A stretch of 64,000 nt of DNA from NCBI GenBank assembly GCA_038087875.1, contig CM075987.1:17362001-17426000 (forward strand), written 5' to 3'. The position numbers and the translations under genes were made by a program. Below the pieces are notes generated by a model. It was given only the letters and a program-made list of their open reading frames with translations, was not told where the DNA came from and did no database searches. The DNA comes from Malacoraja senta (lineage: Eukaryota). Within the stretch, counting starts at the first letter, position 1, and every line of letters begins with the position of its first letter. Below are positions 25,201 through 54,069 of this stretch, piece after piece.

Positions 25201-26430
25201 AAAGACTTCAGAAAATGTGTTGGTTGCTTGCAACGTGTTTGCCAAGTTGGCTTGGCTTTTAAAGACTCTTCAGAAAATGTGTTGGTTGCTTACAAAGCGT
25301 TTGCCAAGTTGGCTTGGATTTTAAAGCCTCTTCAGAAAATGTGTTGGTTGCTTGCAAAGCGTTTGGCAAGTTGGCTTGGCTTTTAAAGAGTCTTCGGAAA
25401 ATATGTCGGTTGCTTGCAAAGCGTTTGCCAAGTTGGTTTGGCTTTTAAAGTCTTCAGAAAATGTGTTGGTTGCTTGCAAAGCGTTTGCCAAGTTGGCTTG
25501 GCTTTTAAAGACTTCAGAAAATGTGTTGGTTGCTTGCTTGCAAAGCGTTTCCCAAGTTGGCTTGGCTTTTAAAGACTCTTCAGAGAATGTGTTGGTTGCT
25601 TGCAAAGTGTTTGCCAATTTGGCTTGGCTTTTAAAGACCTCTGAAAATGGGTTGGTTGCTTGCAAAGTGTTTGCCAAGTTGGCTTGGCTTTTAATGACTC
25701 TTCAGAAAATGTGTTGGTTGCTTGCAAAGTTTTTGCCAAGTTGGCTTGGCTTTTAAAGACTCTTCAGAAAATGGGTTGGTTGCTTGCAAAGTGTTTGCCA
25801 AATTGGCTTGGCTTTTAAAGACTCTTCAGAAAACGTGTGGGTTGTTTGCAAATCGTTTGGCAAGTTGGCTTAGCTTTTAAGGACCCTTCAGAAAATGTGT
25901 GGGTTGCTGTCAACGCGTTTGCCAAGTTGGATTGGCTTTTGAAGACCCTTCAGAAAAAGTGTTAGTTGCTTGCAAAGCCTTTGGCAAGTTGGCTTGGCTT
26001 TTAAAGAGTCTTCGGAAAATGTGTTGGTTGCTTGCAAAGCGTTTGCCAAGTTGTCTTGGCTTTTAGAGACTCTTCAGAAAATGTCTTGGTTGCTTGCAAA
26101 GCGTTTGCCAAGTTGCCTTTGCTTTTAAAGACTCTTCAGAAAATGTCTTGGTTGCTTGCAAAGTGTTTGCCAAGTTGGCTTGGCTTTTAAAGACTTCAGA
26201 AAATGTGTTGGTTCCTTGCAAAGTGTTTGCCAAGTTGGCTTGGGTTTTAAAGACTTCAGAATATGTGTTGGTTGCTTGCAAAGCGTTTGCCAAGTTGGCT
26301 TGCCTTTTAAAGACACTTCAGAAAATGTGTTGGTTGCTTGCAAAGTGTTTGCTAAGTTGGCTTGGCTTTTAAAGACTTCAGAAAATGTGTTGGTTGCTTG
26401 CAAAGTGTTTTCCAAGTTGGCTTGGCTTTT
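19250..26430. repeat. Higher-order repeat, period 2394 bp (about 39 monomers, 3 copies)
   Basis: Offsets 19258/21652/24046 and 21275/23669/26063. Markers CTCTTAAAAAAACG and GCTGTCAACGCG recur every 2394 bp. Confidence 0.93.
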
Positions 26431-29400: not shown

Positions 29401-32400
29401 GTTGGTTGCTTGCAAAGCGTTTGCCAAGTTGGCTTGGCTTTTAAAGACTCTTCAGAAAATGTGTTGCTTGCTTAAAAAGTGTTTGCCAAATTCGCTTGGC
29501 TTTTAATGACTTCTGAAAATGGGCTGGTTGCTTGCAAAATGTTTGCCAAGTTGGCTTGGCTTTTAAAGACTTCATAAAATGGGTTGGTTGCTTGCAAAGT
29601 GTTTGCCAATTTGGCTTGACATAAAGACTCATCAGAAAATGTGTTGGTTGCTTCCAAAGTGTTTGCCATATTGCCTTGGCTTTTAAAGACTTCAGAAAAT
29701 GGGTTGGTTGCTTGCAAAGTGTTTGCCAAGTTGGCTTGGCTTTTAAAGACCCTTCAGAAAATGTGTTGGTTGCTTGCAAAGTGTTTGCCAAGTTTGCTTG
29801 GCTTTTACAGACTCTTAAGAAAATGTGTTGGTTGCTTGTAAAGTGTTTGCCAAGTTGGCTTGGCTTTTAAAGACTTCAGAAAATGTGTGGGTTGCTTGCA
29901 AAGCGTTGGCCAAGTTGGATTGGCTTTTAAAGACCCTTCAGAAAACGTGTTAGTTGCTTGCAAAGCGTTTGGCAAGTTGGCTTGGCTTTTAAAGAGTCTT
30001 CGGAAAATGTGTTGGTTGCTTGCAAAGCGTTTGCCAAGTTGTCTTGGCTTTTAGAGACTTCAATAAATGTCTTGGTTGCTTGCAGAGCGTTTGCCAAGTT
30101 GGCTTGGCTTTTAAAGAATCTTCAGAAAATGCGGTGGTTGCTTGCAAAGCGTTTGGCAAGTTGGCTTGGCTTTTAAAGACTCTTCAGAAAATGTGTTGGT
30201 TGCCTGCAAAGCGTTTGCCGAATTGGTTTGGCTTTTAAAGTCTTCAGAAAATGTGTTGGTTGCTTGCAAAGCGTTTGCCAAGTTGGCTTGGCTTTTAAAG
30301 ACTTCAGAAAATGTGTAGGTTGCTTGCTTGCAAAGCGTTTCCCAAGTTGGCTTGGCTTTTAAAGACTCTTCAGAGAATGTGTTGGTTGCTTGCAAAGTGT
30401 TTGCCAATTTGGCTTGGCTTTTAAAGACCTCTGAAAATGGGTTGGTTGCTTGCAAAGTGTTTGCCAAGTTGGCTTGGCTTTTAATGACTCTTCAGAAAAT
30501 GTGTTGGTTGCTTGCAAAGTTTTTGCCAAGTTGGCTTGGCTTTTAAAGACTCTTCAGAAAATGGGTTGGTTGCTTGCAAAGTGTTTGCCAAATTGGCTTG
30601 GCTTTTAAAGACTCTTCAGAAAACATGTGGGTTGCTTGCAAAGCGTTTGGCAAGTTCGCTTAGCTTTTAAGGACCCTTCAGAAAATGTGTGGGTTGCTTG
30701 CAAAGCGTTTGCCAAGTTGGATTGGCTTTTGAAGACCCTTCAGAAAATGTGTTAGTTGCTTGCAAAGCGTTTGGCAAGTTGGCTTGGCTTTTAAAGAGTC
30801 TTCGGAAAATATGTTGGTTGCTTGCAAAGCGTTTCCCAAGTTGTCTTGGCTTTTAGAGACTCTTCAGAAAATGTCTTGGTTGCTTGCAAAGCGTTTGCCA
30901 AGTTGCCTTTGCTTTTAAAGACTCTTCAGAAAATGTGTTGGTTGCTTGCAAAGTGTTTGCTAAGTTGGCTTGGCTTTTAAAGACTTCAGAAAATGTGTTG
31001 GTTGCTTGCAAAGTGTTTTCCAAGTTGGCTTGGCTTTTAAATACTTCAGAAAATAGGTTGGTGGCTTGCAAAGTGTTTGCCAAATTGGCTTGGCTTTTAA
31101 AGAGTCTTCAGAAAATGTGTGGATTGCTTGCAAAGCGTTTGGCAAGTTGGCTTGTCTTTTAAAGACTCTTCGGTAAATGTGTGGGTTGCTTGCAAAGCGT
31201 TTGGCAAGTTGGCTTGGCTTTTAAAGACTTCAGAAAATGTGTGGGTTGCTTGTAAAGCGTTTGCCAAGTTGGCTTGGCTTTTAGAGACTCTTCAGAAAAT
31301 GTATTGGTTGCTTGCAAAGCGTTTGCCAAGTTGCCTTTGCCTTTATAGATTCTTCAGAAAATGTCTTGGTTGCTTGCAAAGCGTTTGCCAAGTTGTCATG
31401 GCTTTTAAAGACTTCAGAAAATGTGTTGGTTGCTTGCAAAGTGTTTGCCAAGTTGGCTTGGCTTTTAAAGACTTTTCAGAAAATGTGTTGGTTGCTTGCA
31501 AAGCGTTTGGCAAGTTGGTTCGGCTTTTAAAGACTCTTCAGAAAATGTGTGGGTTGCTTGCAAAGCGTATGGCAAGTTGGCTTGGCTTTTAAAGACTCTT
31601 CAGAAAATGTGTTAGCTGCTTGCAAAGCTTTTGGCAAGTTGGCTTGCCTTTTAATGACTGTTCTGAAAATGGTCTGGTTGCTTGCAAAGTGTTTGCCAAA
31701 TTGGCTTGGCTTTTAAAGACTTCAGAAAATGTGTGGGTTGCTTGCAAAGCGTTTGGCAAGTTGGCTTGTCTTTTAAAGACTCTTCAGTAAATGTGTGGGT
31801 TGCTTGAAAAGCGTTTGGCAAGTTGGCTTGGCTTTTAAAAACTCTTCAAAACATGTGTTGGTTGCTTGCAAAGCGTTTGCCAAGTCCGCTTGGCTTTTAA
31901 AGACTCTTCAGAAAATGTGTTGATTGTTTGCAAAGCGTTTGGCAAGTTGGCTTGGCTTTTAAAGACTCTTCAGTAAATGTGTTGGTTGCTTGCAAAGTGT
32001 TTGCCAAATTGGCTTGGCTTTCAAAATCTTCAGAAAATGGGTTGGTTGCTTGCAAAGTGTTTGCCAAATTGGCTTGGGTTTATAAAGACTTCAGAAAACG
32101 TGTGGGTTGCTTGCAAAGCGTTTGGCAAGTTGGCTTGGCTTTTAAAGACTTAAGTAAATGTGCGGGTTGCTTGCAAAGCGTTTGGCAAGTTGGCTTGGCT
32201 TTTAAAGACTTCAGAAAATGTGTGGGTTGCTTGCAAAGCGTTTGGCAAGATGGCTTGGTTTTTGAAGACTCTTCAGAAAATGTGTTAGTTGCTTGCAAAG
32301 CGTTTGGCAAGTTGGCTTGGCTTTTAAAGACTCTTCAGAACATGTCTTGGTTGCTTGCAAACCGTTTGCCAAGTTGCCTTTGCTTTTAAAGACTCTTCAG

Positions 32401-34874
32401 AAAATGTCTTGGTTGCTTGCAAAGCGTTTGCCAAGTTGTCATGGCTTTTAAAGACTTCAGAAAATGTGTTGGTTACTTGGAAAGTGTTTGCTAAGGTGGC
32501 TTGGCTTTTAAAGACTTCAGAAAATGTCTTGGTTTCTTGCAAAGCGTTTGCCAAGTCGGCTTGGCTTTTAAAGACTCTTCAGAAAATGTGGTGGTTGCTC
32601 GCAAAGCGTTTGCCAAGTTGGCTTGGCTTTTAAAGACTCTTCAGAACACGTGTTGGTTGCTTGCAAAGCGTTTGCCAAGTCGGCTTGGCTTTTAAAGACT
32701 CTTCAGAAAATGTGGTGTTTGCTTGCAAAGCGTTTGCCAAGTTGGCTTGGCTTTTAAAGACTCTTCAGAAAATGTGTTGGTTGTTTGCAAAGCGTTTGGC
32801 AAGTTGGCTTGGCTTTTAAAATCTTCAGAAAACGGGTTGGTTGCTTGCAAAGTGTTTGCCAAATTGGCTTGGCTTTTAAAGACTCTTCAGAAAACGTGTG
32901 GGTTGCTTGCAAAGCGTTTGGCAAGTTGGCTTAGCTTTTAAAGACTTCAGAAAATGGGTTGGTTGCTTGCAAAGAGTTTGCCAAATTGGCTTGGCTTTTA
33001 AAGACTCTTCAGAAAATGTGTGGGTTGCTTGCAAAGCGTTTGGCAAGTTGGCTTGTCTTGTAAAGACTCTTCAGTAAATGTGTGGGTTGCTTGAAAAGCG
33101 TTTGGCAAGTTGGCTTGGCTTTTAAAGACTCTTAAGTAAATGTGTGGGTTGCTTGCAAAGCGTTTGGCAAGTTGGCTTAGCTTTTAAGGACTCTTCAGAA
33201 AATGTGTGGGTTGCTTGCAAAGCGTTTGCCAAGTTGGATTGGCTTTTGAAAACCCTTCAGAAAATGTGTTAGTTGCTTGCAAAGCGTTTGGCAAGTTGGC
33301 TTGGCTTTTAAAGAGTCTTCGGAAAATGTGTTGGTTGCTTGCAAAGCGTTTGCCAAGTTGTCTTGGCTACTAGAGACTCTTCAGAAAATGTATTGGTTGC
33401 TTGCATAGCGTTTGCCAAGTTGCCTTTGCTTTTAATGACTCTTCAGAAAATGTCTTGGTTGCTTGAAAAGCGTTTGGCAAGTTGGCTTGGCTTTTAAAGA
33501 CTCTTCAAAACATGTGTTGGTTGCTTGCAAAGCGTTTTCCAAGTCGGCTTGGCTTTTAAAGACTCTTCAGAAAATGTGGTGGTTGCTTGCAGAGCGTTTG
33601 CCAAGTTGGCTTGGCTTTTGAAGACTCTTCTGAAAATGTGGTGTTTGCTTGCAAAGCGTTTGCCAAGTTGGCTTGTCTTTTAAAGACTCTGCAGAAAATG
33701 TGTTGGTTGCTTGCAAAGCGTTTGGCAAGTTGGCGTGGCTTTTAAAGACTTCAGAAAATGTGTTGGTTGCTTGCAAAGCGTTTGCCAAGTTGGCTTTGCC
33801 TTTAAAGACTCTTCAGTAAATGTGTGGGTTGCTTGCAAAGCGTTTGGCAAGTTGGCTCGGCTTTTAAAGACCCTTCAGAGAGTGTGTGGGTTGCTTGTAA
33901 AGTGTTTGCAAATTGACTTGGCTTTTAAAGACTCTTCAGAAAATTTGTTGGTTGCTTGCAAAGTGTTTGCCAAGTTGGCTTGGCTTTTAAAGACTTGAGA
34001 AAATGTGTTGGTTGCTTGCAAAGTGTTTGCCAAATTGCCTTGGCTTTTAAAGACTCTTCAGAAAATGGGTTGGTTGCTTGCAAAGTGTTTGCCAAGTTGG
34101 CTTGGCTTTTAAAGACTCTTCAGAAAATGTGTTGGTTGACTGCAAAGTGTTTGCCAAGTTGGCTTGGCTTTTAAAGACTCTTCAAAAAATGTGTTGGTTG
34201 CTTGCAAAGTGTTTGCCAAGTTGGCTTGGCTTTTAAAGACTCTTCAGAAAATGTCTTGGTTGCTTGCAAAGCGTTTGGCAAGTTGGCTTGGCTTCTAAAG
34301 AGTCTTCACTAAATGTGTGGGTTGCTTGCAAAGCGTTTGCCAAGTTGGCTTGGCTTTTAAACTCTTCAGAAAATGGGTTGGTTGCTTGCAAAGTGTTTGC
34401 CAAGTTGGCTTGGCTTTTAAAGACTTCACAAAATGTGTTGGTTGCTTGCAAAGTGTTTGCCAAATTGGCTTGGCTTTTAACGACTCTTCAGACTATGTGT
34501 GGGTAGCTTGCAAAGTGTTTGCCAAGTTGGCTTGGCTTTTAAAGACTCTTCAGTAAATGTGTGGGTTGCTTGCAAAGCGTTTGGCAAGTTGGCTTGACTT
34601 CTAAAGACTCTTCAGAAAATGTGTGGGTTGCTTGCAAAGCGTTTGGCAAGTTGGCTTGGCTTTTAAAGACTCTTCAGAAAATGTGTTAGTTGCTTGCAAA
34701 GCGCTTGGCAAGTTGGCTTGGGTTTTAAAGACTCTTCAGAAAATGTGTGGGTTGCTTGCAAAGCGTTTGGCAAGTTGGCTTGATTCTAAAGACTCTTCAG
34801 TAAATGTGTGGGTTGCTGGCAAAGCGTTTGCCAAGTTGGCTTGGCTTTTAAAGACTCTTCAGAAAATGTGTTGG

Positions 34875-35025
34875 GGCTGTGATATTTTGTGAGGCGGAGG
34901 CGACGGTAGAAGCGTTCCAAGTCATGGAGGGTCTGAAGAAGGATTTCGGCCCGAAACGTTACCTATTTCCTTCGCTCCATAGATGCTGCTGCACCCGCTG
35001 AGTTTCTCCAGCATTTTTGTGTCCC
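34875..35025 (+). mobile_element. 151-bp non-satellite insertion, copy 1; probable non-autonomous or truncated Penelope-like retroelement fragment
   Basis: The satellite breaks after TCAGAAAATGTGTTGG and resumes at TCAGAAAATGTGATGG (35026). The insert GGCTGTGATATTTTG...CATTTTTGTGTCCC matches copy 2 except at 34943 (A vs G). It contains a hammerhead core. The Penelope assignment is inferred from the ribozyme type. Confidence 0.75.
34924..34980 (+). ncRNA. Minimal type I hammerhead ribozyme motif (copy 1, A-C mismatch in stem II)
   Basis: Same elements as copy 2: CTGAAGA 34933-39, GAAA 34953-56, predicted cleavage after 34960. Stem II reads GGAT-TTCG-GCCC, so one G-C pair is lost at 34943. Confidence 0.65.
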
Positions 35026-36512
35026 TCAGAAAATGTGATGGTTGCTTGCAAAGTGTTTGCCAAATTGGCTTGGCTTTTAAAGACTTCAGAAAATGGGTTG
35101 GTTGCTTGCAAAGTGTTTGCCAAGTTGGCTTGGCTTTTAAAGACTCTTCAGAAAATGTGTTGGTTGCTTGCAAAGTGTTTGCCAAGTTGGCTTGGCTTTT
35201 AAAGACTCTTCAGAAAATGTGTTGGTGGCTTGCAAAGTGTTTGACAAGTTGGCTTGGATTTTATAGACTCCAGAAAATGGGTTGGTTGCTTGCAAAGTGT
35301 TTGCCAAGTTGGCTTGGATTTTAAAGACTCTTCAGAAAATGTGTTGGTTGCTTGCAAAGTGTTTGCCAAATTGGCTTGGCTTTTAAAGACTCTTCAGAAA
35401 ATGTGTTGGTTGCTTGCAAAGTGTTTGCCAAGTTGGCTTGGCTTTTAAAGACTCTTCAGAAAATGTCTTGGTTGCTTGCAAAGCGTTTGGCAAGTTGGCT
35501 TGGCTTCTAAAGAGTCTTCACTAAATGTGTGGGTTGCTTGCAAAGCGTTTGCCAAGTTGGCTTGGCTTTTAAACTCTTCAGAAAATGGGTTGGTTGCTTG
35601 CAAAGTGTTTGCCAAGTTGGCTTGGCTTTTAACGACTCTTCAGACTATGTGTGGGTTGCTTGCAAAGTGTTTGCCAAATTGGCTTGGCTTTTAAAGACTT
35701 CAGAAAATGGGTTGGTTGCTTGCAAAGTGTTTGCCAAGTTGGCTTGGCTTTTAAACTCTTCAGAAAATGGGTTGGTTGCTTGCAAAGTGTTTGCCAAATT
35801 GGCTTGGCTTTTAACGACTCTTCAGACTATGTGTGGGTTGCTTGCAAAGTGTTTGCCAAGTTGGCTTGGCTTTTAAAGACTCTTCAGTAAATGTGTGGGT
35901 TGCTTGCAAAGCGTTTGGCAAGTTGGCTTGACTTCTAAAGACTCTTCAGAAAATGTGTGGGTTGCTTGCAAAGCGTTTGGCAAGTTGGCTTGGCTTTTAA
36001 AGACTCTTCAGAAAATGTGTTAGTTGCTTGCAAAGCGCTTGGCAAGTTGGCTTGGGTTTTAAAGACTCTTCAGAAAATGTGTGGGTTGCTTGCAAAGCGT
36101 TTGGCAAGTTGGCTTGATTCTAAAGACTCTTCAGTAAATGTGTGGGTTGCTGGCAAAGCGTTTGCCAAGTTGGCTTGGCTTTTAAAGACTTCAGAAAATG
36201 TCTTGGTTCCTTGCAAAGTGTTTGCCAAGGTGGCTTGCCTTTTAAAGACTTCAGAAATTGTGTTGGTTGCTTGCAAAGTGTTTGCCAAGTTGGCTTGGCT
36301 TTTAAGGACTCTTCAAAAAATATGTTTGTTGCTTGCAAAGTGTTTTCCAAGTTGGCTTAGCTTTTAAAGACTCCTCAGAAAATGTGTTGGTTGCTTGTAA
36401 AGTGTCTGCCAAATTGGCTTGGCTTTTAAAGACTTCAGAAAATGTGTTGTTTGCTTGCAAAGTGTTTGCCAATTTGGCTTGGCTTTTAAAGACACTTCAG
36501 AAAATGTGATGG
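35026..36512. repeat. Satellite DNA, about 24 monomers between the two inserts
   Basis: Same 60/62-bp monomer in the same orientation. Confidence 0.98.
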
Positions 36513-36663
36513 GGCTGTGATATTTTGTGAGGCGGAGGCGACGGTAGAAGCGTTCCAAGTCATGGAGGGTCTGAAGAAGGGTTTCGGCCCGAAACGTTAC
36601 CTATTTCCTTCGCTCCATAGATGCTGCTGCACCCGCTGAGTTTCTCCAGCATTTTTGTGTCCC
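36513..36663 (+). mobile_element. 151-bp non-satellite insertion, copy 2, with 16-bp target-site duplication; probable Penelope-like retroelement fragment
   Basis: Flanked on both sides by TCAGAAAATGTGATGG (36497-36512 and 36664-36679). Both flanks carry the uncommon TGTGATGG variant instead of consensus TGTGTTGG. Confidence 0.8.
36562..36618 (+). ncRNA. Minimal type I hammerhead ribozyme motif (copy 2, intact stem II)
   Basis: Stem I: GGT (36568-70)/ACC (36599-601), possibly extended by ATGGAG (36562-67)/CTCCAT (36613-18). Core CTGAAGA (36571-77) plus one extra A. Stem II GGGT-TTCG-GCCC (36579-90). GAAA (36591-94). Palindromic ACGT in place of stem III. Predicted cleavage after GTT at 36598. 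Confidence 0.75.
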
Positions 36664-39600
36664 TCAGAAAATGTGATGGTTGCTTGCAAAGTGTTTGCCA
36701 AATTGGCTTGGCTTTTAAAGACTTCAGAAAATGGGTTGGTTGCTTGCAAAGTGTTTGCCAAGTTGGCTTGGCTTTTAAAGACTCTTCAGAAAATGTGTTG
36801 GTTGCTTGCAAAGTGTTTGCCAAGTTGGCTTGGCTTTTAAAGACTCTTCAGAAAATGTGTTGGTGGCTTGCAAAGTGTTTGACAAGTTGGCTTGGATTTT
36901 ATAGACTCCAGAAAATGGGTTGGTTGCTTGCAAAGTGTTTGCCAAATTGGCTTGGCTTTTAAAGACTCTTCAGAAAACGTGTTGGTTGCTTGCAAAGCGT
37001 TTGCCAAGTTGGCTTGGCTTTTAAAGACTTCAGAAAATGTGCTGGTTGCTTGAAAAGTGTTTACCAATTTGGCTTGGCTTTTAACGACTCTTCAGACTAT
37101 GTGTTGGTTGCTTGCAAAGTGTTTGCCAAGTTGGCTTGGCTTTTAAAGACTCTTCAGAAAATGTGTGGGTTTCTTGCAAAGCGTTTGGCAAGTTGGCTTG
37201 GCTTTTGAAGACTCTTCAGTAAATGTGTGGGTTTCTTGCAAAGCGTTTGGCAAGTTGGCTTGACTTTTAAAGACTCTTCAGAAAATGTGTGGGTTGCTTG
37301 CAAAGCGTTTGGGAAGTTGGCTTGGCTTTTAAAGACTCTTCAGAAAATGTGTGGGTTGCTTGCAAAGCGTTTGGCAAGTTCGCTTGGCTTTTAAAGACTC
37401 TTCAGGAAATGTGTTGGTTGCTTGCAAAGTGTTTTCCAAGTTGGTTTGGCTTTTAAAGACTTCAGAAAATGTGTTGGTTGCTTGCAAAGTGTTTGCCAAA
37501 TTGGCTTGGCTTTTAAAGACTTCAGACTATGTGTTGGTTGCTTGCAATGCGTTTGCAAAGTTGGCTTGGCTTTTAAAGACTTCAGAAAATGTGTTGGTTG
37601 CTTGGAATGTGTTTGCCATGTTGGCCTGGCTTTCAAAGACTTCATAAAATGTGTTGGTTGCATGCAAAGCGTTTGCCAAATTGGCTTGGCTCTTAAAGAC
37701 TCTTCAGAAGATGTGTTGGTTGCTTGCAAAGCGTTTGCCAAGTTGGCTTGGCTTTTAAAGACTCTTCAGAAATTGTGTTGGTTGCTTGCAAAGTGTTTGC
37801 CAAGTTGGCTTTGCTTTTAAAGACTCATCAGAAAATGTGTTGGTTGCTCGCAAAATGTTTGCCAAGTTGGCTTGGCTTTTAAAGACTCTTCAGGAAATGT
37901 GTTGGTTGCTTGCAAAGTGTTTTCCAAGTTGGTTTGGCTTTTAAAGACTTCAGAAAATGTGTTGGTTGCTTGCAAAGTGTTTGCCAAATTGGCTTGGCTT
38001 TTAAAGACCCTTCAGACTATGCGTTGGTTGCTTGCAAAGCGTTTGCCAAGTTGGCTTGGCTTTTAAAGACTCTTCAGAAAATGTGTTGGTTGCTTGCGAA
38101 GTGTTTGCCAAGTTGGCTTGGCTTTCAAAGATTCTTTAGAAAATGTGTTGGTTGCTTGCAAAGCGTTTGCAAAGTTGGCTTGGCTCTTAAAGCCTCTTCA
38201 GAAAATGTGTTGGTTGCTTGCAAAGCGTTTGCCAAGTTGGCTTGGCTTTTAAATACTCTTCAGAAAATGTCTTGGTTGCTTGCAAAGCGTTTGCCAAGTT
38301 GGCTTGGCATTCAAAGACTCTTCAGAAAATTTGTTGGTTGCTTGCAAAGTGTTTGCCAAATTGGCTTGGCTTTTAAAGACTCTTCAGAAAATGTGTTGGT
38401 TGCTTGCAAAGTGTTTGCCAAGTTCTCTTGGCTTTTAAAGACTCTTCAGAAAATGTGTTGGTTACTTTTAAAGCGATTGCCAAGTTGGTTTGACTTTTAA
38501 AGCCTCTTCAGAAAATGTGTTGGTTGTTTGCAAAGCGTTTGCCAAGTAGGCTTGGCTTTTAAAGACTCTTCAGAAAATGTGTTGGTTGCTTTCAAAGCGT
38601 TTGCCAAGTTAGCTTGACTCATAATGACTCTTCAGAAAATGTCTTGGTTGCTTGAAAAGCGTTTGCCATGTTGGCTTTGCTTTTAAAGACTCTTCAGAAG
38701 ATGTGTTGGTTGCTTGCAAAGTGTTTGCCAAGTTGGCTTGGCTTTTAATGGCTCTTCAGGAAATGTGTTGGTTGCTTGCAAAGTGTTTTCTAAGTTGGTT
38801 TGGCTTTTAAAGACTTCAGAAAATGTGTTGGTTGCTTGCAAAGTGTTTGCAGAGTTAGCTTGGCTTTTAAAGACTTCACAAAATGTGTTGGTTGCTTGCA
38901 AAGTGTTTGCCAAATTGGCTTGGCTTTTAAAGACTCTTCAGACTATGTGTTGGTTACTTCCAAAGTGTTTGCCAAATTGGCTTGGCTTTTAAAGACTCTT
39001 CAAAAAATGTGTTGGTTGCTTGCAAAGTGTTTGCCAAGTTGGCTTGGCTTTTAAAGACTCTTCAGAAAATGTGTGGGTTGCTTGCAAAGCGTTTGGCAAG
39101 TTGGCTTGGCTTCTAAAGGCTCTTCAGAAAATGTGTTGGTTGCTTGCAAAGCGTTTGCCAAGTTGGCTTGGCTTTCAATGACTCTTCAGAAATGTGTTGG
39201 ATGCTTGCAAATTGTTTGCCAAGTTGGCTTGGCTTTTAAAGACTCTTCAGAAAATGTGTTGGTTGCTTGCAAAGTGTTTGCCAAGTTGGCTTGGCTTTTG
39301 AAGACTCTTCAGAATATGTGTTGGTTGCTTGCAAAGGGTTTGCCAAATTGGCTTGGCTTTTAAAGACTCTTCAGAAAATGTGTTGGTTGCTTGCAAAGTG
39401 TTTGCCAAGTTGGCTTGGCTTTTAAAGACACTTCAGAAAATGTGTTGGTTGCTTGTAAAGTGTTTGCCAAATTGGCTTGGCTTTTAAAGACTCTTCAGAA
39501 AATGTGTTGGTTGCTTGCAAAGTGTTTGCCAAGTTGGCTTGGCTTTTAAAGACTCTTCAGAAAATCTGTTGGTTGCTTGCAAAGCGTTTACCAAGTTAGC

Positions 39601-40029
39601 TTGGCTTTTAAAGACTCTTCAGAAAATGTGTTGGTTGCTTGCAAAGCGTTTGGCAAGTTGGCTTGGCTTTTTAAGACGCTTCAGAAAATGTGTTGGTTGC
39701 TTACAAAGCGTTTGGCAAGTTGGTTTGGCTTTTAAAGACTCTTCAGAAAATGTGTTGGTTGCTTTCAAAGCGTTTGCCAAGTTAGCTTGACTTATAAAGA
39801 CTCTTCAGGAAATGTGTTGGTTGCTTGCAAAGTGTTTTCCAAGTTGGTTTGGCTTTTAATGACATCAGAAAATGTGTTGGTTGCTTGCAAAGTGTTTGCC
39901 AAGTTGGCTTGGCTTTCAAAGACTTCACAAAATGTGTTGGTTGTTTGCAAAGTGTTTGCCAAGTTGGCTTGGCTTTTAAAGACACTTCAGAAAATGTGTT
40001 GGTTGCTTTCAAAGCGTTTGCCAAGTTAG

Positions 40030-41600
40030 CTTGACTTTTAAATACTCTTCAGAAAATGTGTTGGTTGCGTGCAAGGCGTTTGCCCAGTTGGCTTGGCTTA
40101 CAATGACTTCAGAAAATGTGTTGGTTGCTTGCAAAGCCTTTCCCAAATTGGCTTGGCTTTTAAAGACTCTTCAGAAAATGTGTTGGTTGCTTGCAAAGTG
40201 GTTGCCAAGTTGGCTTGGCTTTTATAGACTCTTCAGAAAATGTGTTGGTTGCTTTCAAAGAGATTGCCAAGTTAGCTTGACTTATAAAGACTCTTCAGGA
40301 AATGTGTTGGTTGCTTGCAAGGCGTTTGCCCAGTTGGCTTGGCTTTTAATGACTTCAGAAAATGTGTTGGTTGCTTGCAAAGCGATTGCCAAGTTGGTTT
40401 GGCTTTTGAAGCCTCTTCAGAAAACGTGCTGGTTGCTTGAAAAGCGTTTGCCAAGTAGGCTTGGCTTTTAAAGACTCTTTAGAAAATGTGTTGGTTGCTT
40501 TCAAAGCGTTTGCCAAGTTAGCTTGACTTATGAAGACTCTTCATAAAATGTCTTGGTTGCTTGCAAAGCGTTTGCCAAGTTGGCTTGGCTTTTAAATACT
40601 CTCCAGAAAATTTCTTGGTTGGTTGCAAAGCGTTTGCCAAGTAGGCTTGGCTTTCCAAGACTTCAGAAAATGTGTTGGTTGCTTGGAAAGTGTTTGCCAA
40701 GTTGGCTTGGCTTTTAAAGGCTCTTCAGAAAATAGGTTGGTTGCTTTCAAAGCGTTTGCAAAGTTAGCTTGACTTATAAAGACTCTTCAGGAAATGTGTT
40801 GGTTGCTTGCAAAGTGTTTTCCAAGTTGGTTTGGCTTTTAATGACATCAGAAAATGTGTTGGTTGCTTGCAAAGTGTTTGCCAAGTTGGCTTGACTTTTA
40901 AATACTCTTCAGAAAATGTGTTGGTTGCGTGCAAGGCGTTTGCCCAGTTGCATGGCTTACAATGACTTCAGAAAATGTGTTGGTTGCTTGCAAAGCCTTT
41001 CCCAAATTGGCTTGGCTTTTAAAGACTCTTCAGAAAATGTGTTGGTTGCTTGCAAAGTGGTTGCCAAGTTGGCTTGGCTTTTATAGACTCTTCAGAAAAT
41101 GTGTTGGTTGCTTTCAAAGAGATTGCCAAGTTAGCTTGACTTATAAAGACTCTTCAGGAAATGTGTTGGTTGCTTGCAAGGCGTTTGCCCAGTTGGCTTG
41201 GCTTTTAATGACTTCAGAAAATGTGTTGGTTGCTTGCAAAGTGATTGCCAAGTTGGTTTGGCTTTTGAAGCCTCTTCAGAAAACGTGTTGGTTGCTTGAA
41301 AAGCGTTTGCCAAGTAGGCTTGGCTTTTAAAGACTCTTTAGAAAATGTGTTGGTTGCTTTCAAAGCGTTTGCCAAGTTAGCTTGACTTATGAAGACTCTT
41401 CATAAAATGTCTTGGTTGCTTGCAAAGCGTTTGCCAAGTTGGCTTGGCTTTTAAATACTCTCCAGAAAATTTCTCGGTTGGTTGCAAAGCGTTTGCCAAG
41501 TAGGCTTGGCTTTCAAAGACTTCAGAAAATGTGTTGGTTGCTTGCAAAGTGTTTGCCAAGTTGGCTTGGCTTTTAAAGACTCTTCAGAAAATAGGTTGGT
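40030..41600. repeat. Higher-order duplication, period about 859-860 bp (2 copies)
   Basis: Offsets 40272/41131 and 40518/41377. Shared markers GTTGCGTGCAAGG and CAAAGAGATTGCC. Confidence 0.85.
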
Positions 41601-42609
41601 TGCTTGAAAAGTGTTTACCAAGTTGGCTTGGCTTTTAAAGACTCTTCAGAAAATGGGTTGGTTGCTTGCAAAGTGTTTGCCAAATTGGCTTGGCGTTCAA
41701 AGACTCCACAGAAAATGTGTGGGTTGCTTGCAAAGCGTTTGGCAAGTTGGCTTGGCTTTTAAAGACTCTTCAGTAAATGTGTGGGTTGCTTGCAAAGCGT
41801 TTCGCAAGTTGGCTTGACTTTTAAAGACTCTTGAGAAAATGTGTGGGTTGCCTGCGAAGCGTTTGGCAAGTTGGCTTGGCTTTTAAAGACTCTTCAGAAA
41901 ATGTGTTAGTTGCTTGCAAAGCGTTTGGCAAGTTGGCTTGGCTTTTAAAGACTCTTCAGAAAATGTGTGGGTTGCTTGCTAAGCGTTTGGCAAGTTGGCT
42001 TGATTCTAAAGACTCTTCAGTAAATGTGTGGGTTGCTTGCAAAGCGTTTGCCAAGTTGGCTTGGCTTTTAAGGACTCTTCAGAAAATGTGTTGGTTGCTT
42101 GCAAAGCGTTTGCCAAGTTGGCTTGGCTTTTAAAGACTCTTCAGAAAATGTGTTGGTTGCTTGCAAAGTGTTTGCCAAGTTGGCGTGGCTTTCAAAGACT
42201 CTTCAGAAATGTGTTGGTTGCTTGCAAAGCGTTTGCAAAGTTGGCTTGGCTTTTAAAGCCTCTTCAGAAAATGAGTTGGTTGCTTGCAAAGTGTTTGCCA
42301 AGTTGGCTTGGCTTTTGAAGACTCTTCAGAATATGTGTTGGTTGCTTGCAAAGGGTTTGCCAAATTGGCTTGGCTTTTAAAGACTCTTCAGAAAATGTGC
42401 TGGTTGCTTGCAAAGTGTTTGCCAAGTTGGCTTGGCTTTTAAAGACTCTTCAGAAAATGTGTTGGTTGCTTGTAAAGTGTATGCCAAATTGGCTTGGCTC
42501 TTAAAGACTCTTCAGAAAATGTGTTGGTTGCTTGCAAGGCGTTTGCCCAGGTGGCTTGGCTTTTAATGACTTCAGAAAATGTGTTGGTTGCTTGCAAAGT
42601 GTTTGCCAA

Positions 42610-45600
42610 GTTGGCTTGGCTTTTGAAGACTCTTGAGAAAATGTGTTGGTTGCTTGCAAAGTGTTTGCCAAGTTGGCTTGGATTTTAAAGACTCTTCAGA
42701 AAATGGGTTGGTTGCTTGCAAAATGTTTGCCAAATTGGCTTGGCTTTTGAAGACTCTTCAGAAAATGTGTTGGTTGCTTGATAAGTGTTTTCCAAGTTGG
42801 CCTGGCTTTTAAAGACTCTTCACAAAATCTGTTGGCTGCTTGCATTGTGTTTGCCAAGTAGGCTTGGCTTTTAAAGACTCTTTAGAAAATGTGTTGGTTG
42901 CATTCAAAGCGTTTGACAAGTTAGCTTGACTTATGAAGACTCTTCATAAAATGTCTTGGTTGCTTGCAAAGCGTTTGCCAAGTTGGCTTGGCTTTTAAAT
43001 ACTCTCCAGAAAATTTCTTGTTTGCTTGCAAAGCGTTTGCCAAGTAGGCTTGGCTTTCAAAGACTTCAGAAAATGTGTGGGTTGCTTGCAAAGTGTTTGC
43101 CAAGTTGGCTTGGCTTTTAAAGACTCTTCAGAAAATAGGTTGGTTGCTTGAAAAGTGTTTACCAAGTTGGCTTGGCTTTTAAAGACTCTTCAGAAAATGG
43201 GTTGGTTGCTTGCAAAGTGTTTGCCATATTGGCTTGGCTTTCAAAGACTCCACAGAAAATGTGTGGGTTGCTTGCAAAGCGTTTGGCAAGTTGGCTTGGC
43301 TTTTAAAGACTCTTCAGTAAATGTGTGGGTTGCTTGCAAAGCGTTTCGCAAGTTGGCTTGACTTTTAAAGACTCTTCAGAAAATGTGTGGGTTGCCTGCG
43401 AAGCGTTTGGCAAGTTGGCTTGGCTTTTAAAGGCTCTTCAGAAAATGTGTTAGTTGCTTGCAAAGCGTTTGGCAAGTTGGCTTGGCTTTTAAAGACTCTT
43501 CAGAAAATGTGTGGGTTGCTTGCAAAGCGTTTGGCAAGTTGGCTTGATTCTAAAGACTCTTCAGTAAATGTGTGGGTTGCTTGCAAAGCGTTTGCCAAGT
43601 TGGCTTGGCTTTTAAAGACTCTTCAGAAAATGGGTTGGTTGCTTGCAAAGCGTTTGCCAAGTTGGCTTGGCTTTTAAGGACTCTTCAGAAAATGTGTTGG
43701 TTGCTTGCAAAGCGTTTGCCAAGTTGGCTTGGCTTTTAAAGACTCTTCAGAAAATGTGTTGGTTGCTTGCAAAGTGTTTGCCAAGTTGGCTTGGCTTTTG
43801 AAGACTCTTCAGAATATGTGTTGGTTGCTTGCAAAGGGTTTGCCAAATTGGCTTGGCTTTTAAAGACTCTTCAGAAAATGTGTTGGTTGCTTGCAAAGTG
43901 TTTGCCAAGTTGGCTTGGCTTTTAAAGACTCTTCAGAAAATGTGTTGGTTGCTTGTAAAGTGTATGCCAAATTGGCTTGGCTTTTAAAGACTCTTCAGAA
44001 AATGTGTTGGTTGCTTGCAAGGCGTTTGCCCAGGTGGCTTGGCTTTTAATGACTTCAGAAAATGTGTTGGTTGCTTGCAAAGCGATTGCCAAGTTGGTTT
44101 GGCTTTCAAAGCCTCTTCAGAAAATGTGTTGGTTGCTTGCAAAGCGTTTGCCAAGTAGGCTTGGCTTTTAAAGTCTCTTCAGAAAATGTCTTGGTTGCTT
44201 GCAAAGCGTTTGCCAAGTTGGCTTGGCTTTTAAAGACTCTTCAGAAAATGTCTTGGTTGCTTGCAAAGCGTTTGCCAAGTTGGCTTGGCTTTTAATGACT
44301 CTTCAGAAAATGTGTTGGTTGCTTGCAAAGTGTTTGCCAAGTTGGCGTGGCTTTTGAAGACTCTTGAGAAAATGTGTTGGTTGCTTGCAAAGTGTTTGCC
44401 AAGTTGGCTTGGATTTTAAAGTCTTCAGAAAATGTGTTGGTTGCTTGCAAAGTGTTTGCCAAATTGGCTTGGCTTTTAAAGACTCTTCTGAAAATGTGAT
44501 GGTTGCTTGCAAAGCGTTTCGCAAGTTGGCTTGACTTTTAAAGACTCTTCAGAAAATGTGTGGGTTGCCTGCAAAGCGTTTCGCAAGTTGGCTTGGGTTT
44601 TAAAGACTCTTCAGTAAATGTGTTAGTTGCTTGCAAAGCGTTTGGCAAGTTGGCTTGGCTTTTAAAGACTCTTCAGAAAATGTGTGGGTTGCTTGCAAAG
44701 CGTTTGGCAAGTTGGCTTGATTCCAAAGACTCTTCAGTAAATGTGTGGGTTGCTTGCAAAGCGTTTGCCAAGTTGGCTTGGCTTTTAAAGACTCTTCAGA
44801 AAATGGGTTGGTTGCTTGCAAAGCGTTTGCCAAGTTGGCTTGGCTTTTAAGGACTCTTCAGAACATGTGTTGGTTGCTTGCAAAGCGTTTGCCAAGTTGG
44901 CTTGGCTTTTAAAGACTCTTCACAAAATGTGTTGGCTGCTTGCATTGTGTTTGCCAAGTTGACTTGGCTTTTAAAGACTCTTCAGAAAACGTGTTGGTTG
45001 CTTGCAAGGCGTTTGCCCAGTTGGCTTGGCTTACAATGACTTCAGGAAATGTGTTGGTTGCTTGCAAAGCGTTTCCCAAATTGGCTTGGCTTTTAAAGAC
45101 TCTTCAGAAAATATGTTGGTTGCTTGTAAAGTGTTTGCCAAATTGGCTTGGCTTATAAAGACTCTTCAGAAAATGTGTTGGTTGCTTGCAAAGTGTTTGC
45201 CAAGTTGGGTTGGCTTTTAAAGACTCTTCAGAAAATGTGTTGGTTGCTTGCAAAGCGTTTACCAAGTTGGCTTGGCTTTTAAAGACTCTTCAGAAAATGT
45301 GTTGGTTGCTTGCAAAGCGTTTGGCAAGTTGGCTTGGCTTTTAAAGACTCTTCAGAAAATGTGTTGGTTGCTTGCAAAGCGTTTGGCAAGTTGGCTTGAT
45401 TCTAAAGACTCTTCAGTAAATGTGTGGGTTGCTTGCAAAGCGTTTGCCAAGTTGGCTTGGCTTTTAAAGACTCTTCAGAAAATGGGTTGGTTGCTTGCAA
45501 AGCGTTCGCCAAGTTGGCTTGGCTTTTAAGGACTCTTCAGAAAATGTGTTGGTTGCTTGCAAAGCGTTTGCCAAGTTGGCTTGGCTTTTAAAGACTCTTC

Positions 45601-52800: not shown

Positions 52801-54069
52801 CTTGGCTTTTAAAGTCTATTCAGAAAATGGGTTGGTTGCTTGCAAAGCGTTTGGCAAGTTGGCTTGGCTTTTAAAGACTTCAGAAAATGTGTGGGTTGCT
52901 TGCAAAGCGTTTGGCAAGTTGGCTTGGCTTTTAAAGACTCTTCAGAAAATGTGTTAGTTGCTTGCAAAGCTTTTGGCAAGTTGGCTTGGCTTTTAAAGAC
53001 TCTTCTGAAAATGTGATGGTTGCTTGCAAAGCGTTTACCAAGTTGACTTGGCTTTTAAAGACACTTCAGGAAATGTGTGGGTTGCTTGCAAAGCGTTAGG
53101 CAAGTTGGCTTGGCTTTTAAAGACGTCAGAAAATGTGTTGGTTGCTTGCAAAGCGGTTGGCACGTTGGCTTGGCTTTTAAGGACTATTCAGAAAATGTGT
53201 TGGTTGCTTGCAAAGCGTTTGCCAAGTTGGCTTGGCTTTTAAAGACTTCAGAAGATGTGTTGGTAGCTTGCAAAGCGTTTGGCAAGTTGGCTTGGCTTTT
53301 AAAGACTCTTCGGAAAATGTGTTGGTTGCTTGCAAATAGTTTACCAAGTTGGCTTAGGTTTTAAAGACTCTTCAGAAAATGTGTTGGTTGCTTGCAAAGC
53401 GTTTGGCAAGTTAGCTTGACATTTAAAGACTCCTCAGAAAAAGTGTTGGTTGCTTGCAAAGCGTTTGCCCAGTTGGCTTGCCTTTTAAAGACTCTTCAGA
53501 AAATGTGTTGGTTGCTTGCAAAGTGTTTGCCTAGTTGGCTTGGCTTTTAAAGACTTCAGAAAATGTGTTGGTTGCTTGCAAAGTGTTTGCCAAATTGGCT
53601 TGGCTTTTAAAGACTCTTCAGAAAATGGGTTGGTTGCTTGCAAAGTGTTTGCCAAGTTGGCTTGTCTTTTAAAGACTTCAGAAAATGTGTTGGTTACTTG
53701 CAAAGTGTTTGCCAATTTGGCTTGGCTTTTAAAAACTTCAGAAAATGTGTTGGTTGCTTGCAAAGTGTTTGCCAAGTTGGCTTGGCTTTTAAAGACTCTT
53801 CAGTAAATGTGTTGGTTGGTTGCAAAGTGTTTGCCAAGTTGGCTTGGCTTTTAAAGACTTCAGAAAATGTGTTGGTTGCTTGCAAAGTGTTTGCCAAATT
53901 GGCTTGGCTTTTCAAGACTCTTCCGAAAATGTGTGGGTTGCTTGCATAGCGTTTGGCAAGTAGGCTTGGCTTTTATAGACTCTTCAGTAAATGTGTGGGT
54001 TGCTTGCAAAGCGTTTGGCAAGTTGGGTTGGCTTTTAAAGGCTCTTCAGAAAATGTGTGGGTTGCTTGC

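What the first reader, a model, noticed from the sequence alone, without database searches (positions are those of the whole stretch)
36562..36618. Hammerhead ribozyme motif hidden inside a satellite array
Seen: CTGAAGA, an extra A, hairpin GGGT-TTCG-GCCC, GAAAC, then GTT, bracketed by complementary GGT/ACC (and ATGGAG/CTCCAT across an 11-nt bulge). Established: the hammerhead core is CUGANGA...GAAA...UH; minimal type I hammerheads whose stem III is reduced to a short palindrome occur in Penelope-like retroelements; an extra nucleotide after A9 occurs in some natural hammerheads. Inference: this is a self-cleaving RNA cutting after 36598.
Basis: partly seen in the sequence, partly recalled or inferred. 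Interest (0 to 1): 0.85.

Follow-up and report, generated by a model that had tools for sequence, protein, structure and literature searches.

The report
Penelope-element hammerhead fragment inside satellite
The hammerhead-ribozyme motif is real but ordinary: it sits in a 150-base broken copy of a very abundant Penelope-like jumping gene that landed in a satellite array, and it is not part of the satellite.

Summary
The motif does not belong to the 62-bp satellite. It lies in a 152-nt insertion (36513-36664) flanked by a 15-nt target-site duplication. That insertion was later copied once, together with at least 600 bp of satellite, to 34875-35026.

The last 96 nt of the insertion are the 3' end of a young, roughly 4-kb Penelope-like element (PLE). 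This element has an RT plus C-terminal GIY-YIG ORF, pseudo-LTR tandems, inverted copies and an optional tail. The exact 28-nt hammerhead core occurs 19,101 times in this 1.94-Gb genome, against 0 for the reversed control.

The motif shows the published hallmarks of PLE "minimal hammerheads": an extra base after A9, a G10.1-C11.1 pair, and an ACGU palindrome in place of helix III.

They are accidental. The canonical element has only 2 helix I pairs.

No Rfam hammerhead model matches the motif, stem II shows no significant covariation, and cleavage is untested. Verdict: a correct call of a known class; this copy is a probably inert relic.

The parts
1..64000 (+). 62-bp satellite array that hosts the insertion
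   Evidence: TRF reports period 62, 1041.1 copies and 87% matches over 1-64000. GC is flat at 0.40-0.43.
36498..36512 (+). left copy of the target-site duplication, CAGAAAATGTGATGG
   Evidence: Read. The same 15 nt recur at 36665-36679. Both carry the GTGATGG variant, which neighbouring units (GTGTTGG) lack.
36513..36525 (+). 13-nt filler at the 5' junction, origin unclear
   Evidence: In one search only a weak 10-15 nt match (E 0.12) to the reverse complement of L043:2686-2700. Treated as unexplained.
36526..36569 (-). inverted fragment of the PLE ORF interior
   Evidence: It is 100% identical over 44 nt to the reverse complement of L043:4225-4268. Searching this part alone gave 949 first-look candidates; 38 of the 40 scored were other places, at 100% over 44-45 nt.
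36569..36664 (+). 3'-terminal 96 nt of the PLE: hammerhead, tail hairpin and the RT-start end GTGTCCCT
   Evidence: Matches L043:6417-6512 at 98.96% over 96 nt. It begins only 2 nt (GT) before CUGA.
36571..36577 (+). hammerhead core box C3-A9 (CUGAAGA)
   Evidence: These columns are at least 70% conserved across the 39 aligned homologues, and five of the seven (G13-A17) are 90-100% conserved.
36578..36578 (+). unpaired A between A9 and G10.1
   Evidence: The column is at least 90% conserved. An extra base here is a stated hallmark of PLE min-HHRs (PMC4209133).
36579..36590 (+). stem II, GGGU-UUCG-GCCC
   Evidence: In alignment A1, 89.7% of cells are paired and G10.1-C11.1 forms a standard pair in 34 of 39 sequences.
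36591..36598 (+). G12-A13-A14, then the ACGU palindrome (A15.1 C15.2 G16.2 U16.1) in place of helix III, then U17. The predicted cut is after 36598.
   Evidence: There are no loop bases, so a helix III can only form between two molecules. The cut site follows from the hammerhead rule and was not measured.
36599..36601 (+). 3' strand of helix I (A1.1 C1.2 C1.3)
   Evidence: Pairs 1.1-2.1 and 1.2-2.2 are standard in 28 and 33 of 39 homologues. Pair 1.3-2.3 is standard in only 7 of 39.
36621..36652 (+). tail hairpin, ATGCTG...CAGCAT
   Evidence: Arms read. Across 46 older copies this stretch is conserved at 0.8-0.9 per column. A role in RT recognition is inferred, not shown.
36665..36679 (+). right copy of the target-site duplication
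34875..35026 (+). second copy of the same insertion, made by a segmental duplication of the array
   Evidence: Read. At a fixed 1638-nt offset, 34800-35400 matches 36438-37038 at 95-100% per 62-nt bin. The core at 34933-34960 has G>A at 34943, which breaks one stem II pair.

Best explanation
The motif is the pseudo-LTR 'minimal' type-I hammerhead of a young, Neptune-type Penelope-like retroelement (PLE). The copy in the window is a dead-on-arrival fragment of that element.

Shown:
- The parent unit is about 4.0 kb, with one ORF of about 1,240 codons (RT, then a C-x4-C-x2-C linker, then GIY-YIG).
- The hammerhead lies about 116 nt after the stop codon and about 135 nt before the next unit's in-frame ATG.
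- Copies end about 65 nt past the predicted cut site (GTGTACCT or GTGTCCCT). A minority carry a further tail, TCGATTTTCCAGCATCTGCAG.

Inferred origin of the window copy:
- The element's endonuclease nicked the satellite, giving the 15-nt TSD.
- Reverse transcription started at the usual internal site and copied 96 nt, to 2 nt before CUGA.
- The RT then switched template onto antisense PLE sequence (44 nt) and added 13 nt of filler.
- The product was integrated, and later a stretch of at least 600 bp of the array that includes it was duplicated.

Inferred function in the parent element, taken from the literature:
- Two hammerheads on multimeric transcripts pair through the ACGU palindrome to build helix III.
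- They cut after U17 (GUU|A), trimming read-through RNA.
- The window copy has no promoter of its own, and its only partner lies 1.6 kb away. It most likely does nothing.
For: TSD and insertion limits.

Dispersed family. A 161-nt query gave 1569 first-look candidates, of which 40 were scored at 96-100% identity. The exact core occurs 19,101 times against 0 for the control.

5'-truncation series, seen among 11 loci: 134, 237, 346, 471, 556, 615, about 970 and at least 1132 nt.

ORF evidence:
- An open frame of 1224 aa.
- Pfam RVT_1 at aa 708-877 (E 6.5e-6) and GIY-YIG at aa 1128-1161 (E 1.5e-3), in that order.
- In the Atlas, 24 of 30 hits fall in clusters carrying HTH_animal, DUF8422 and GIY-YIG (the cluster name adds reverse transcriptase), top score 0.97.
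- The EN-domain protein gave 113,483 first-look candidates; all 129 scored were 99-100% identical.

PLE layout:
- Pseudo-LTR arrangement (ORF end, hammerhead, tail, then ATG) in 6 of 7 loci that reach the 5' region.
- A head-to-head inverted pair in L044.
- The tail in 15 of 50 sampled copies (counted by eye).

The motif matches the features that PMC4209133 lists for PLE min-HHRs: a base between positions 9 and 10.1, G10.1-C11.1, and palindromic 15.2-16.2.

The PLE traits (5' truncation, pLTR, adjacent inverted copy, 30-40-bp tail, HHR in the pLTR, CX2-5CxxC linker in Neptune and Nematis) are described in PMC8557442 (passages). Internal RT start sites just downstream of the hammerhead are described in PMC11167929.
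Against: - No Rfam hammerhead family matches at the gathering threshold or at E<=10, either on the window copy or on a canonical pLTR.
- Both Pfam hits are below the curated cut-offs (26.4 against 29.6 bits; 19.2 against 22.6 bits).
- Stem II is conserved but does not covary. The covariation score is 0.158 against shuffles of 0.138 +/- 0.013, reached by 31 of 500 shuffles. Percent paired is 76.2 against 75.8 shuffled.
- Canonical helix I has only 2 regular pairs.
- The predicted minimum-energy folds are not the hammerhead fold. Energies are -18.5 against -12.0 kcal/mol for the window copy and -9.4 against -4.2 for the canonical copy. The z-score of the 109-nt RNA is -0.19.
- The catalytic role in PLEs is itself unsettled. 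Activity in vitro is low even for dimers (PMC4209133). Catalytic mutants of the Anolis element still insert in vitro, and no RNA-seq ends were found at its cut site (PMC11167929).
Confidence: 0.88

Rival explanations
1. The conserved 100-nt module (TCAGT, then hammerhead-like core, then tail hairpin) is kept mainly as a promoter, 5'-end and RT-recognition module. The hammerhead-like core is then a passenger or a structural element and not a working ribozyme.
For: - The whole module is about equally conserved in 46 older copies (0.7-0.9 per column). The core is no better kept than the tail.
- Helix I has 2 pairs, and competing folds are 5-9 kcal/mol more stable.
- In the Anolis PLE, catalytic mutants do not affect insertion in vitro and no reads end at the cut site (PMC11167929).
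- Craig et al. raise the possibility that HHRs 'simply parasitize PLEs' (PMC8557442).
- Half of the sampled copies end 0-5 nt before CUGA.
Against: - Every catalytic-core position, the extra base, G10.1-C11.1 and the palindrome are retained across distinct families in this genome.
- They are also retained across contigs of four other coded organisms, with no core change listed at the 10% level. Nine rows of that table were not shown.
- Mutational rescue (C3G/G8C) shows that the Anolis PLE motif does cleave (PMC11167929).
Confidence: 0.3
2. The motif is a working satellite-borne ribozyme, as in newt satellite 2 or schistosome Sm-alpha. It would process transcripts of the 62-bp array.
For: - The motif is intact at 36571-36598.
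- A second copy lies 1638 nt upstream in the same orientation, so a read-through transcript could in principle bring two copies together.
Against: - Only 2 of about 1041 satellite units carry it.
- It sits in a TSD-flanked retroelement fragment.
- The second copy is a duplicate that carries a stem II mismatch.
- No tandem junction of the module exists in the genome. The pattern search gave 0 forward and 0 reverse.
Confidence: 0.04
3. The resemblance to a hammerhead is due to chance.
For: No Rfam hit. Short motifs such as CTGANGA and GAAA are common.
Against: - A structural descriptor (CUGANGA, optional extra base, stem of at least 3 bp, GAAA) found 59 hits against 1 on reversed sequence in 193,558 nt of fetched loci. 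Those loci are biased towards the family.
- The exact core occurs 19,101 times against 0.
- The motif sits where PLE hammerheads are known to sit.
Confidence: 0.02

Closest known systems
Minimal hammerheads (min-HHR) of metazoan Penelope-like elements (Cervera & de la Pena 2014, PMC4209133; whole text read)
   Same: - Type-I layout.
- An unpaired base between A9 and G10.1.
- A G10.1-C11.1 pair.
- No helix III loop, with a palindromic 15.2-16.2.
- Location in the pseudo-LTR of an RT plus GIY-YIG element.
- Thousands of dispersed, mostly solitary copies.
   Different: - Stem II is 4 bp here, against 7-8 bp in the schistosome families.
- Canonical helix I is only 2 regular pairs. That matches what the paper reports for D. 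virilis, not the usual 4-5 bp.
- I found no family-level covariation in this genome.
Poseidon element of Anolis carolinensis (PAc) and its hammerhead (Frangieh et al. 2024, PMC11167929; first part and passages read)
   Same: - The hammerhead lies at the pLTR-ORF junction.
- Insert 3' ends fall at defined internal RT-start sites a short way downstream of the cut site, with an optional tail between two sites.
- Both tandem and inverted arrangements occur.
   Different: - In PAc the ORF starts inside stem II and the cut site is 26 nt after the ATG. Here the in-frame ATG lies about 135 nt after the cut site.
- The linker motif here is of the Neptune type.
Non-LTR retrozymes and their monomers (PMC7229834, search listing only; Li, Clavereau & Pollet 2026 bioRxiv 10.64898/2026.07.22.740005, abstract and Results read)
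   Same: Short hammerhead-bearing, non-autonomous sequences related to PLE pLTRs, with monomers dispersed through the genome.
   Different: Retrozymes are defined by tandem units that can give circular RNAs. No tandem junction of this module was found (0 matches). The roughly 100-nt copies carry TSDs like ordinary truncated insertions.
Satellite-encoded hammerheads (newt satellite 2, schistosome Sm-alpha; recalled, and mentioned in review PMC6765202, passages read)
   Same: A type-I hammerhead with a weak helix III that needs a dimer, found within tandem DNA.
   Different: In those cases the ribozyme is part of every repeat unit. Here it is a foreign insertion in 2 of about 1041 units.

Membership tests
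Hammerhead ribozyme, canonical type I (as modelled by Rfam) | Core boxes C3-U4-G5-A6-N7-G8-A9 and G12-A13-A14 | tested here: met
   CUGAAGA at 36571-36577 and GAAA at 36591-36594.
Hammerhead ribozyme, canonical type I (as modelled by Rfam) | Stem II closed by G10.1-C11.1 | tested here: met
   G36579-C36590 plus 3 further pairs. In 39 homologues 89.7% of cells are paired.
Hammerhead ribozyme, canonical type I (as modelled by Rfam) | Intramolecular helix III hairpin starting with A15.1-U16.1 | tested here: not met
   A15.1 C15.2 G16.2 U16.1 are contiguous (36594-36597) with no loop, so the helix cannot form within one molecule.
Hammerhead ribozyme, canonical type I (as modelled by Rfam) | Helix I of several pairs flanking the cleavage site | tested here: inconclusive
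   The window copy has 3 adjacent pairs plus 6 distal ones, but everything beyond GU comes from an inverted ORF fragment. In 39 homologues only pairs 1.1-2.1 (28 of 39) and 1.2-2.2 (33 of 39) hold; pair 1.3-2.3 holds in 7 of 39.
Hammerhead ribozyme, canonical type I (as modelled by Rfam) | Match to an Rfam hammerhead covariance model | tested here: not met
   0 matches at the gathering threshold in the window. No hammerhead family at E<=10 on 36490-36680 or on the canonical pLTR at L066:1170-1390.
Hammerhead ribozyme, canonical type I (as modelled by Rfam) | Site-specific self-cleavage 3' of H17 | not testable with these tools
   U17 is at 36598. All runs found are contigs, which cannot show RNA ends.
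PLE minimal hammerhead (min-HHR) | [quoted passage not shown] | tested here: met
   A36578. The column is at least 90% conserved. The feature is named in PMC4209133.
PLE minimal hammerhead (min-HHR) | Palindromic 15.2-16.2 with no or minimal loop 3, allowing a dimeric helix III | tested here: met
   ACGU at 36594-36597. Older families read ACGU followed by C17.
PLE minimal hammerhead (min-HHR) | Located in the pseudo-LTR of a PLE | tested here: met
   In 6 of 7 loci that reach the 5' region the motif lies between the end of one ORF copy and the ATG of the next.
PLE minimal hammerhead (min-HHR) | Consensus families with covariation or compensatory changes in the stems | tested here: inconclusive
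   Only U-A to U.G changes separate the families. There are 2 isolated compensatory cells in stem II, and the score is not above shuffles (reached by 31 of 500). Only this genome was sampled.
PLE minimal hammerhead (min-HHR) | Cleavage as a dimer | not testable with these tools
   Cofold predictions favour other pairings. That is not a test of activity.
Penelope-like element, EN+ (Neptune type) | Single ORF with an RT followed by a C-terminal GIY-YIG endonuclease | tested here: met
   RVT_1 at aa 708-877 and GIY-YIG at aa 1128-1161, in order, both below the curated cut-offs. Atlas clusters with HTH_animal, DUF8422 and GIY-YIG (cluster name adds reverse transcriptase) score 0.97.
Penelope-like element, EN+ (Neptune type) | CX2-5CxxC motif in the RT-EN linker | tested here: met
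   CNRKRCNTC in the translation, read by eye. The criterion comes from PMC8557442. No phylogeny was built.
Penelope-like element, EN+ (Neptune type) | 5' truncation, partial tandems (pLTR), adjacent inverted copies, optional 30-40-bp tail | tested here: met
   Truncation series. pLTR in 6 of 7 loci. Inverted pairs in L044 and L065. In the 50-copy sample, 12 have inverted snap-backs and 15 have the tail.
Satellite-borne hammerhead / tandem non-LTR retrozyme | The ribozyme is part of each tandem unit | tested here: not met
   2 copies in about 1041 satellite units. 0 tandem junctions of the module genome-wide.

The most novel reading that the evidence does not exclude
In this PLE lineage the RNAs used as templates may start 0-5 nt before the CUGA box, at a conserved TCAGT that resembles an initiator element (consensus recalled, not tested). 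Three things would follow:
- The hammerhead would sit at the very 5' end of the transcript, with only a 2-pair helix I.
- The roughly 100-nt 'hammerhead plus tail' copies would be run-off cDNAs from the internal RT start site to the RNA 5' end, not random truncations.
- Any cleavage would remove the cap and a 31-nt leader from the element's own mRNA, and would not resolve tandem read-through.

Support:
- 50 of the first 100 exact-core sites on contig C1 lose canonical sequence within 0-5 nt of CUGA.
- 12 of those 50 have snap-back inversions at that point, and 4-5 have a reiterated GAAGAAGGGT. Both are signs of an RT reaching the end of a template.
- Older families share the same boundary.
- In contigs of four other coded organisms the match breaks at 6413-6416.
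Probability: 0.3. Interest if true: 0.55.

Novelty: new member of a known kind. Interest (0 to 1): 0.25.

Why it matters
The finding shows that a careful reader can spot a PLE-type minimal hammerhead that Rfam's models miss. It adds no new kind of ribozyme: hammerheads in Penelope-like elements, their missing helix III and the extra base after A9 have been in print since 2014.

Three points are useful:
- The genome holds an unusually large and young PLE family, with 19,101 identical cores and ORF copies 99-100% alike. That makes it good material for the open question of what PLE hammerheads actually do.
- The window copy shows how template switching can accidentally supply a better-looking helix I. 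This is a caution for motif-based ribozyme calls.
- The sharp 5' boundary just before CUGA could be tested directly with 5'-end mapping.

Tried and rejected
- Rfam at the gathering threshold and at E<=10 gave no hammerhead family.
- Pfam on the C-terminal 306 aa alone gave nothing at E<=0.1. The PDB sequence search on 700 aa also gave nothing.
- A tandem or circular-template origin was tested with the pattern GTGTACCT-N0-6-GAGGGTCTGAAG..., which had 0 matches. The retrozyme-array reading was dropped.
- The look-up of sequencing runs listed no RNA holder. All 24 runs are Logan contigs, so RNA starts, ends and expression could not be examined. Read-laying table 6 gave none.
- Lunse, Weinberg & Breaker 2017 (PMC5785218) is not held. 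What I say of it comes from a review's passage.
- Earlier findings of this scan: two look-ups, nothing.
- A distal 4-bp helix I (CUAU/AUAG in the young family against CUCU/AGAG in an older one, one compensatory change) was considered. I rejected it because two other families (CAAU and ACAU upstream) break it (by eye).
- I checked the reading of TCAGT plus ACGT as Inr plus DPE. The spacing is 3 nt short of the fly rule (recalled), so I make no DPE claim.
- A polypyrimidine tract followed by CAG just before the motif looks like a 3' splice site, as in D. virilis Penelope. The sequences upstream of truncated copies are unrelated TSD-bearing flanks, not a shared exon, so splicing does not explain the boundary.
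- It is unresolved whether the 28 GAGGGT-type copies descend from one chimeric source or arose by repeated template jumps.
A 60-kb sample was used instead.

Full report
OBSERVATION.
- CTGAAGA: 36571-36577
- extra A: 36578
- GGGT-TTCG-GCCC: 36579-36590
- GAAAC: 36591-36595
- GTT: 36596-36598
- GGT (36568-36570) against ACC (36599-36601)
- ATGGAG (36562-36567) against CTCCAT (36613-36618), across 11 nt

The whole window is a 62-bp satellite with 1041 copies at 87% matches.

CONTEXT: AN INSERTION, NOT THE SATELLITE.
- The satellite is interrupted at 36513-36664 by 152 nt of unrelated sequence.
- This sequence is flanked by a direct 15-nt duplication, CAGAAAATGTGATGG (36498-36512 and 36665-36679). 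Its GTGATGG variant is not seen in neighbouring units.
- The same insertion recurs once, at 34875-35026. At a fixed offset of 1638 nt, 34800-35400 matches 36438-37038 at 95-100% per 62-nt bin. So a block of satellite containing the insertion was duplicated after the insertion event.
- The older-looking copy has a G>A change in stem II (34943) and a T in its left flank.
- In the window the 28-nt core is found twice at up to 3 mismatches, and never in 100 shuffles.

THE FAMILY.
- A search of the window's own 1.94-Gb assembly with 36505-36665 gave 1569 first-look candidates. Forty were scored. Only the window's two copies matched full length; the others matched from query position 55-65 to 160 at 96-100%.
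- Whole-genome pattern counts:
  - The exact core CTGAAGAAGGGTTTCGGCCCGAAACGTT occurs 19,101 times, against 0 for the reversed control.
  - 10,232 copies have ATCAGT upstream.
  - Only 28 have the window's GAGGGT.
- Copies are 5'-truncated at many points: 134, 237, 346, 471, 556, 615, about 970 and at least 1132 nt among 11 loci.
- In 60 kb of arbitrarily chosen genome I read about 14 separate copies of the module, young and old.

THE PARENT ELEMENT IS A PENELOPE-LIKE ELEMENT.
- A long copy (L043) has a stop-free frame of 1224 aa.
- Pfam finds RVT_1 (aa 708-877, E 6.5e-6) followed by GIY-YIG (aa 1128-1161, E 1.5e-3). Both are under the curated cut-offs.
- The protein Atlas places the RT-EN half among clusters carrying HTH_animal, DUF8422 and GIY-YIG, whose automatic name also lists reverse transcriptase (24 of 30 hits, score 0.97).
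- The linker reads C-x4-C-x2-C, the motif given for the Neptune and Nematis clades (PMC8557442, passages). I built no tree.
- The EN-domain protein gave 113,483 first-look candidates. All 129 scored were 99-100% identical, with open frames up to 1224 aa. The family is very young.
- Seven loci reach the 5' region. Six show the classical pseudo-LTR layout: the end of an upstream ORF copy, about 116 nt of 3' UTR, the hammerhead, then ACC...GTGTACCT, then TCGATTTTCCAGCATCTGCAGTTCC..., and about 135 nt after the predicted cut an in-frame ATG that opens the ORF (read by eye). The seventh has an inverted internal fragment there instead.
- The unit is about 4.0 kb.
- L044 holds a head-to-head inverted pair.
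- All of this matches the published description of PLE insertions: 5' truncation, partial tandems, an adjacent inverted copy, a 30-40-bp tail, and the HHR in the pLTR (PMC8557442).
- It also matches the finding that a PLE reverse transcriptase starts at two internal sites just downstream of the hammerhead (PMC11167929).

ANATOMY OF THE WINDOW COPY.
- 36569-36664 equals L043:6417-6512, with 1 mismatch in 96.
- 36526-36569 is the exact reverse complement of L043:4225-4268, inside the ORF. This piece alone has 949 first-look candidates elsewhere.
- 36513-36525 is unexplained filler.
- The canonical part therefore starts only 2 nt (GT) before CUGA.
- The third GGT/ACC pair and the whole ATGGAG arm come from the inverted ORF fragment. 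Canonical copies read ...CCCCCTATCAGT there.
- In 39 aligned homologues, pairs 1.1-2.1 and 1.2-2.2 are standard in 28 and 33 sequences, and pair 1.3-2.3 in only 7.

IS IT A HAMMERHEAD?
- The core boxes, G10.1-C11.1, the unpaired base after A9 and the loop-less palindrome ACGU match, point by point, what Cervera and de la Pena list as the recurrent features of PLE minimal hammerheads (PMC4209133).
- That paper also reports a 2-bp helix I for D. virilis Penelope, and low activity even for dimers.
- Against a stronger claim:
  - No Rfam hammerhead model matches.
  - Stem II is 89.7% paired but essentially invariant (GGGU with ACCC or GCCC). The covariation score is 0.158 against shuffles of 0.138 +/- 0.013, reached by 31 of 500 shuffles.
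  - In 46 older copies the core is no better conserved than the tail hairpin (0.7-0.9 per column). Conservation drops to 0.3-0.4 just upstream of TCAGT.
  - Predicted minimum-energy folds are not the hammerhead fold. In the young family two changes create a palindrome, GUUUCGG.CCGAAAC, that sequesters GAAA.
- These are predictions, not tests of activity.

OTHER ORGANISMS.
- Logan contigs from four runs labelled as four other (coded) organisms lie on the 3' module at 80% identity or more: 1729, 6408, 5414 and 19,071 contigs.
- The listed pieces start at 6413-6418 and end at 6503-6513 of L043. Upstream loose ends at 6413-6416 are heterogeneous, with agreement 0.35-0.46.
- Differences listed at the 10% level inside the motif are:
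  - 6435 G>A (U.G to U-A in stem II)
  - 6446 T>C (U17 to C17)
  - 6447 A>G (position 1.1)
- None is listed in CUGAAGA or GAAAC, though 9 rows were not shown.
- Contig depth cannot rank the parts of the stretch, and contigs cannot show RNA ends.

A BOUNDARY WORTH NOTING.
- I compared by eye the first 100 exact-core places on contig C1 with the ATCAGT list. Fifty have the canonical upstream sequence.
- I fetched the other 50. Their canonical match stops 0-5 nt before CUGA, distributed as 0 nt: 7, 1 nt: 7, 2 nt: 15, 3 nt: 8, 4 nt: 3, 5 nt: 10.
- Many have TSDs abutting that point. Twelve have a snap-back inverted copy of the hammerhead directly upstream. Four or five have a reiterated GAAGAAGGGT. 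Fifteen carry the tail. Position 1.1 is G in 38 and A in 12.
- Such junctions are what one expects when a reverse transcriptase reaches the end of its template.
- The conserved TCAGT resembles an initiator element (recalled consensus).
- D. virilis Penelope has an internal TATA-less, Inr-type promoter in its pLTR (PMC2377424, passages).
- I therefore keep, at about 0.3, the reading that transcripts start there and that the roughly 100-nt copies are run-off products. An RT stop after the structured region is the plain alternative.

MECHANISM AND VERDICT.
- Shown: the motif's sequence anatomy; its place in a TSD-flanked, chimeric, 5'-truncated PLE fragment; the PLE nature and layout of the parent; the copy numbers.
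- Inferred: target-primed reverse transcription from the internal start site; a template switch onto antisense PLE sequence; later array duplication.
- Taken from the literature and untested here: dimer-dependent cleavage after U17 in multimeric PLE transcripts.
- The window copy has no promoter of its own, its sole partner is 1.6 kb away and carries a stem II mismatch, and I expect it to be inert.
- The call 'PLE-type minimal hammerhead' is right, and the class is known. This is a new member of a known kind, of modest interest.

LIMITS.
- No raw RNA reads were available.
- One key paper (Lunse et al. 2017) could not be read.
- Supplements of PMC4209133 (alignments and descriptors) were not opened. 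They might contain close relatives of this family.
- Copy counts from the similarity searches are lower bounds, as the tool states.

Noticed in passing
window 19548-26151: TRF sub-rows recur at 2394-bp spacing (19548/21942/24336 and 21205/23599/25993). This suggests a higher-order repeat or recent block duplications within the 62-bp satellite.
   Followed up: no
window 34800-35400 vs 36438-37038: A block of at least 600 bp of satellite containing the PLE fragment is duplicated at a 1638-nt offset, at 95-100% identity per 62-nt bin. This dates the insertion before at least one array expansion.
   Followed up: partly
own genome, first 100 exact-core sites on contig C1 (L069-L116): Half of the young copies lose canonical sequence 0-5 nt before CUGA. 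Of those 50, 12 have a snap-back inverted hammerhead directly upstream and 4-5 a reiterated GAAGAAGGGT. These look like signs of an RT reaching a template end.
   Followed up: partly
L043:6385-6418 and older families: A long polypyrimidine tract followed by CAG lies immediately before the motif. Older families also have CTGAC a few bases upstream. This looks like a 3' splice site, recalling the intron that ends at helix I in D. virilis Penelope.
   Followed up: no
window 36581-36595; L043:6429-6443: The young family's stem II differs from older families by C>U and A>G. These changes create the near-palindrome GUUUCGG.CCGAAAC, predicted to outcompete the hammerhead fold. Older families lack it.
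   Followed up: partly
L065:1094-1338; L066:1-372: Several full-length copies carry inverted internal ORF fragments at their 5' side. The fragments come from the same ORF region that is inverted in the window copy, so inversion junctions may recur in that region.
   Followed up: no
own genome, 28 places listed: 28 independent copies share the non-canonical GAGGGT before CUGA, with different flanks and TSDs. I do not know whether they come from one chimeric source or from repeated template jumps.
   Followed up: partly
L066:1267-1380: An out-of-frame ATG in the tail hairpin (CCATAGATGCTG) precedes the ORF's in-frame ATG by 113 nt. It may be an upstream ORF in the 5' leader.
   Followed up: no
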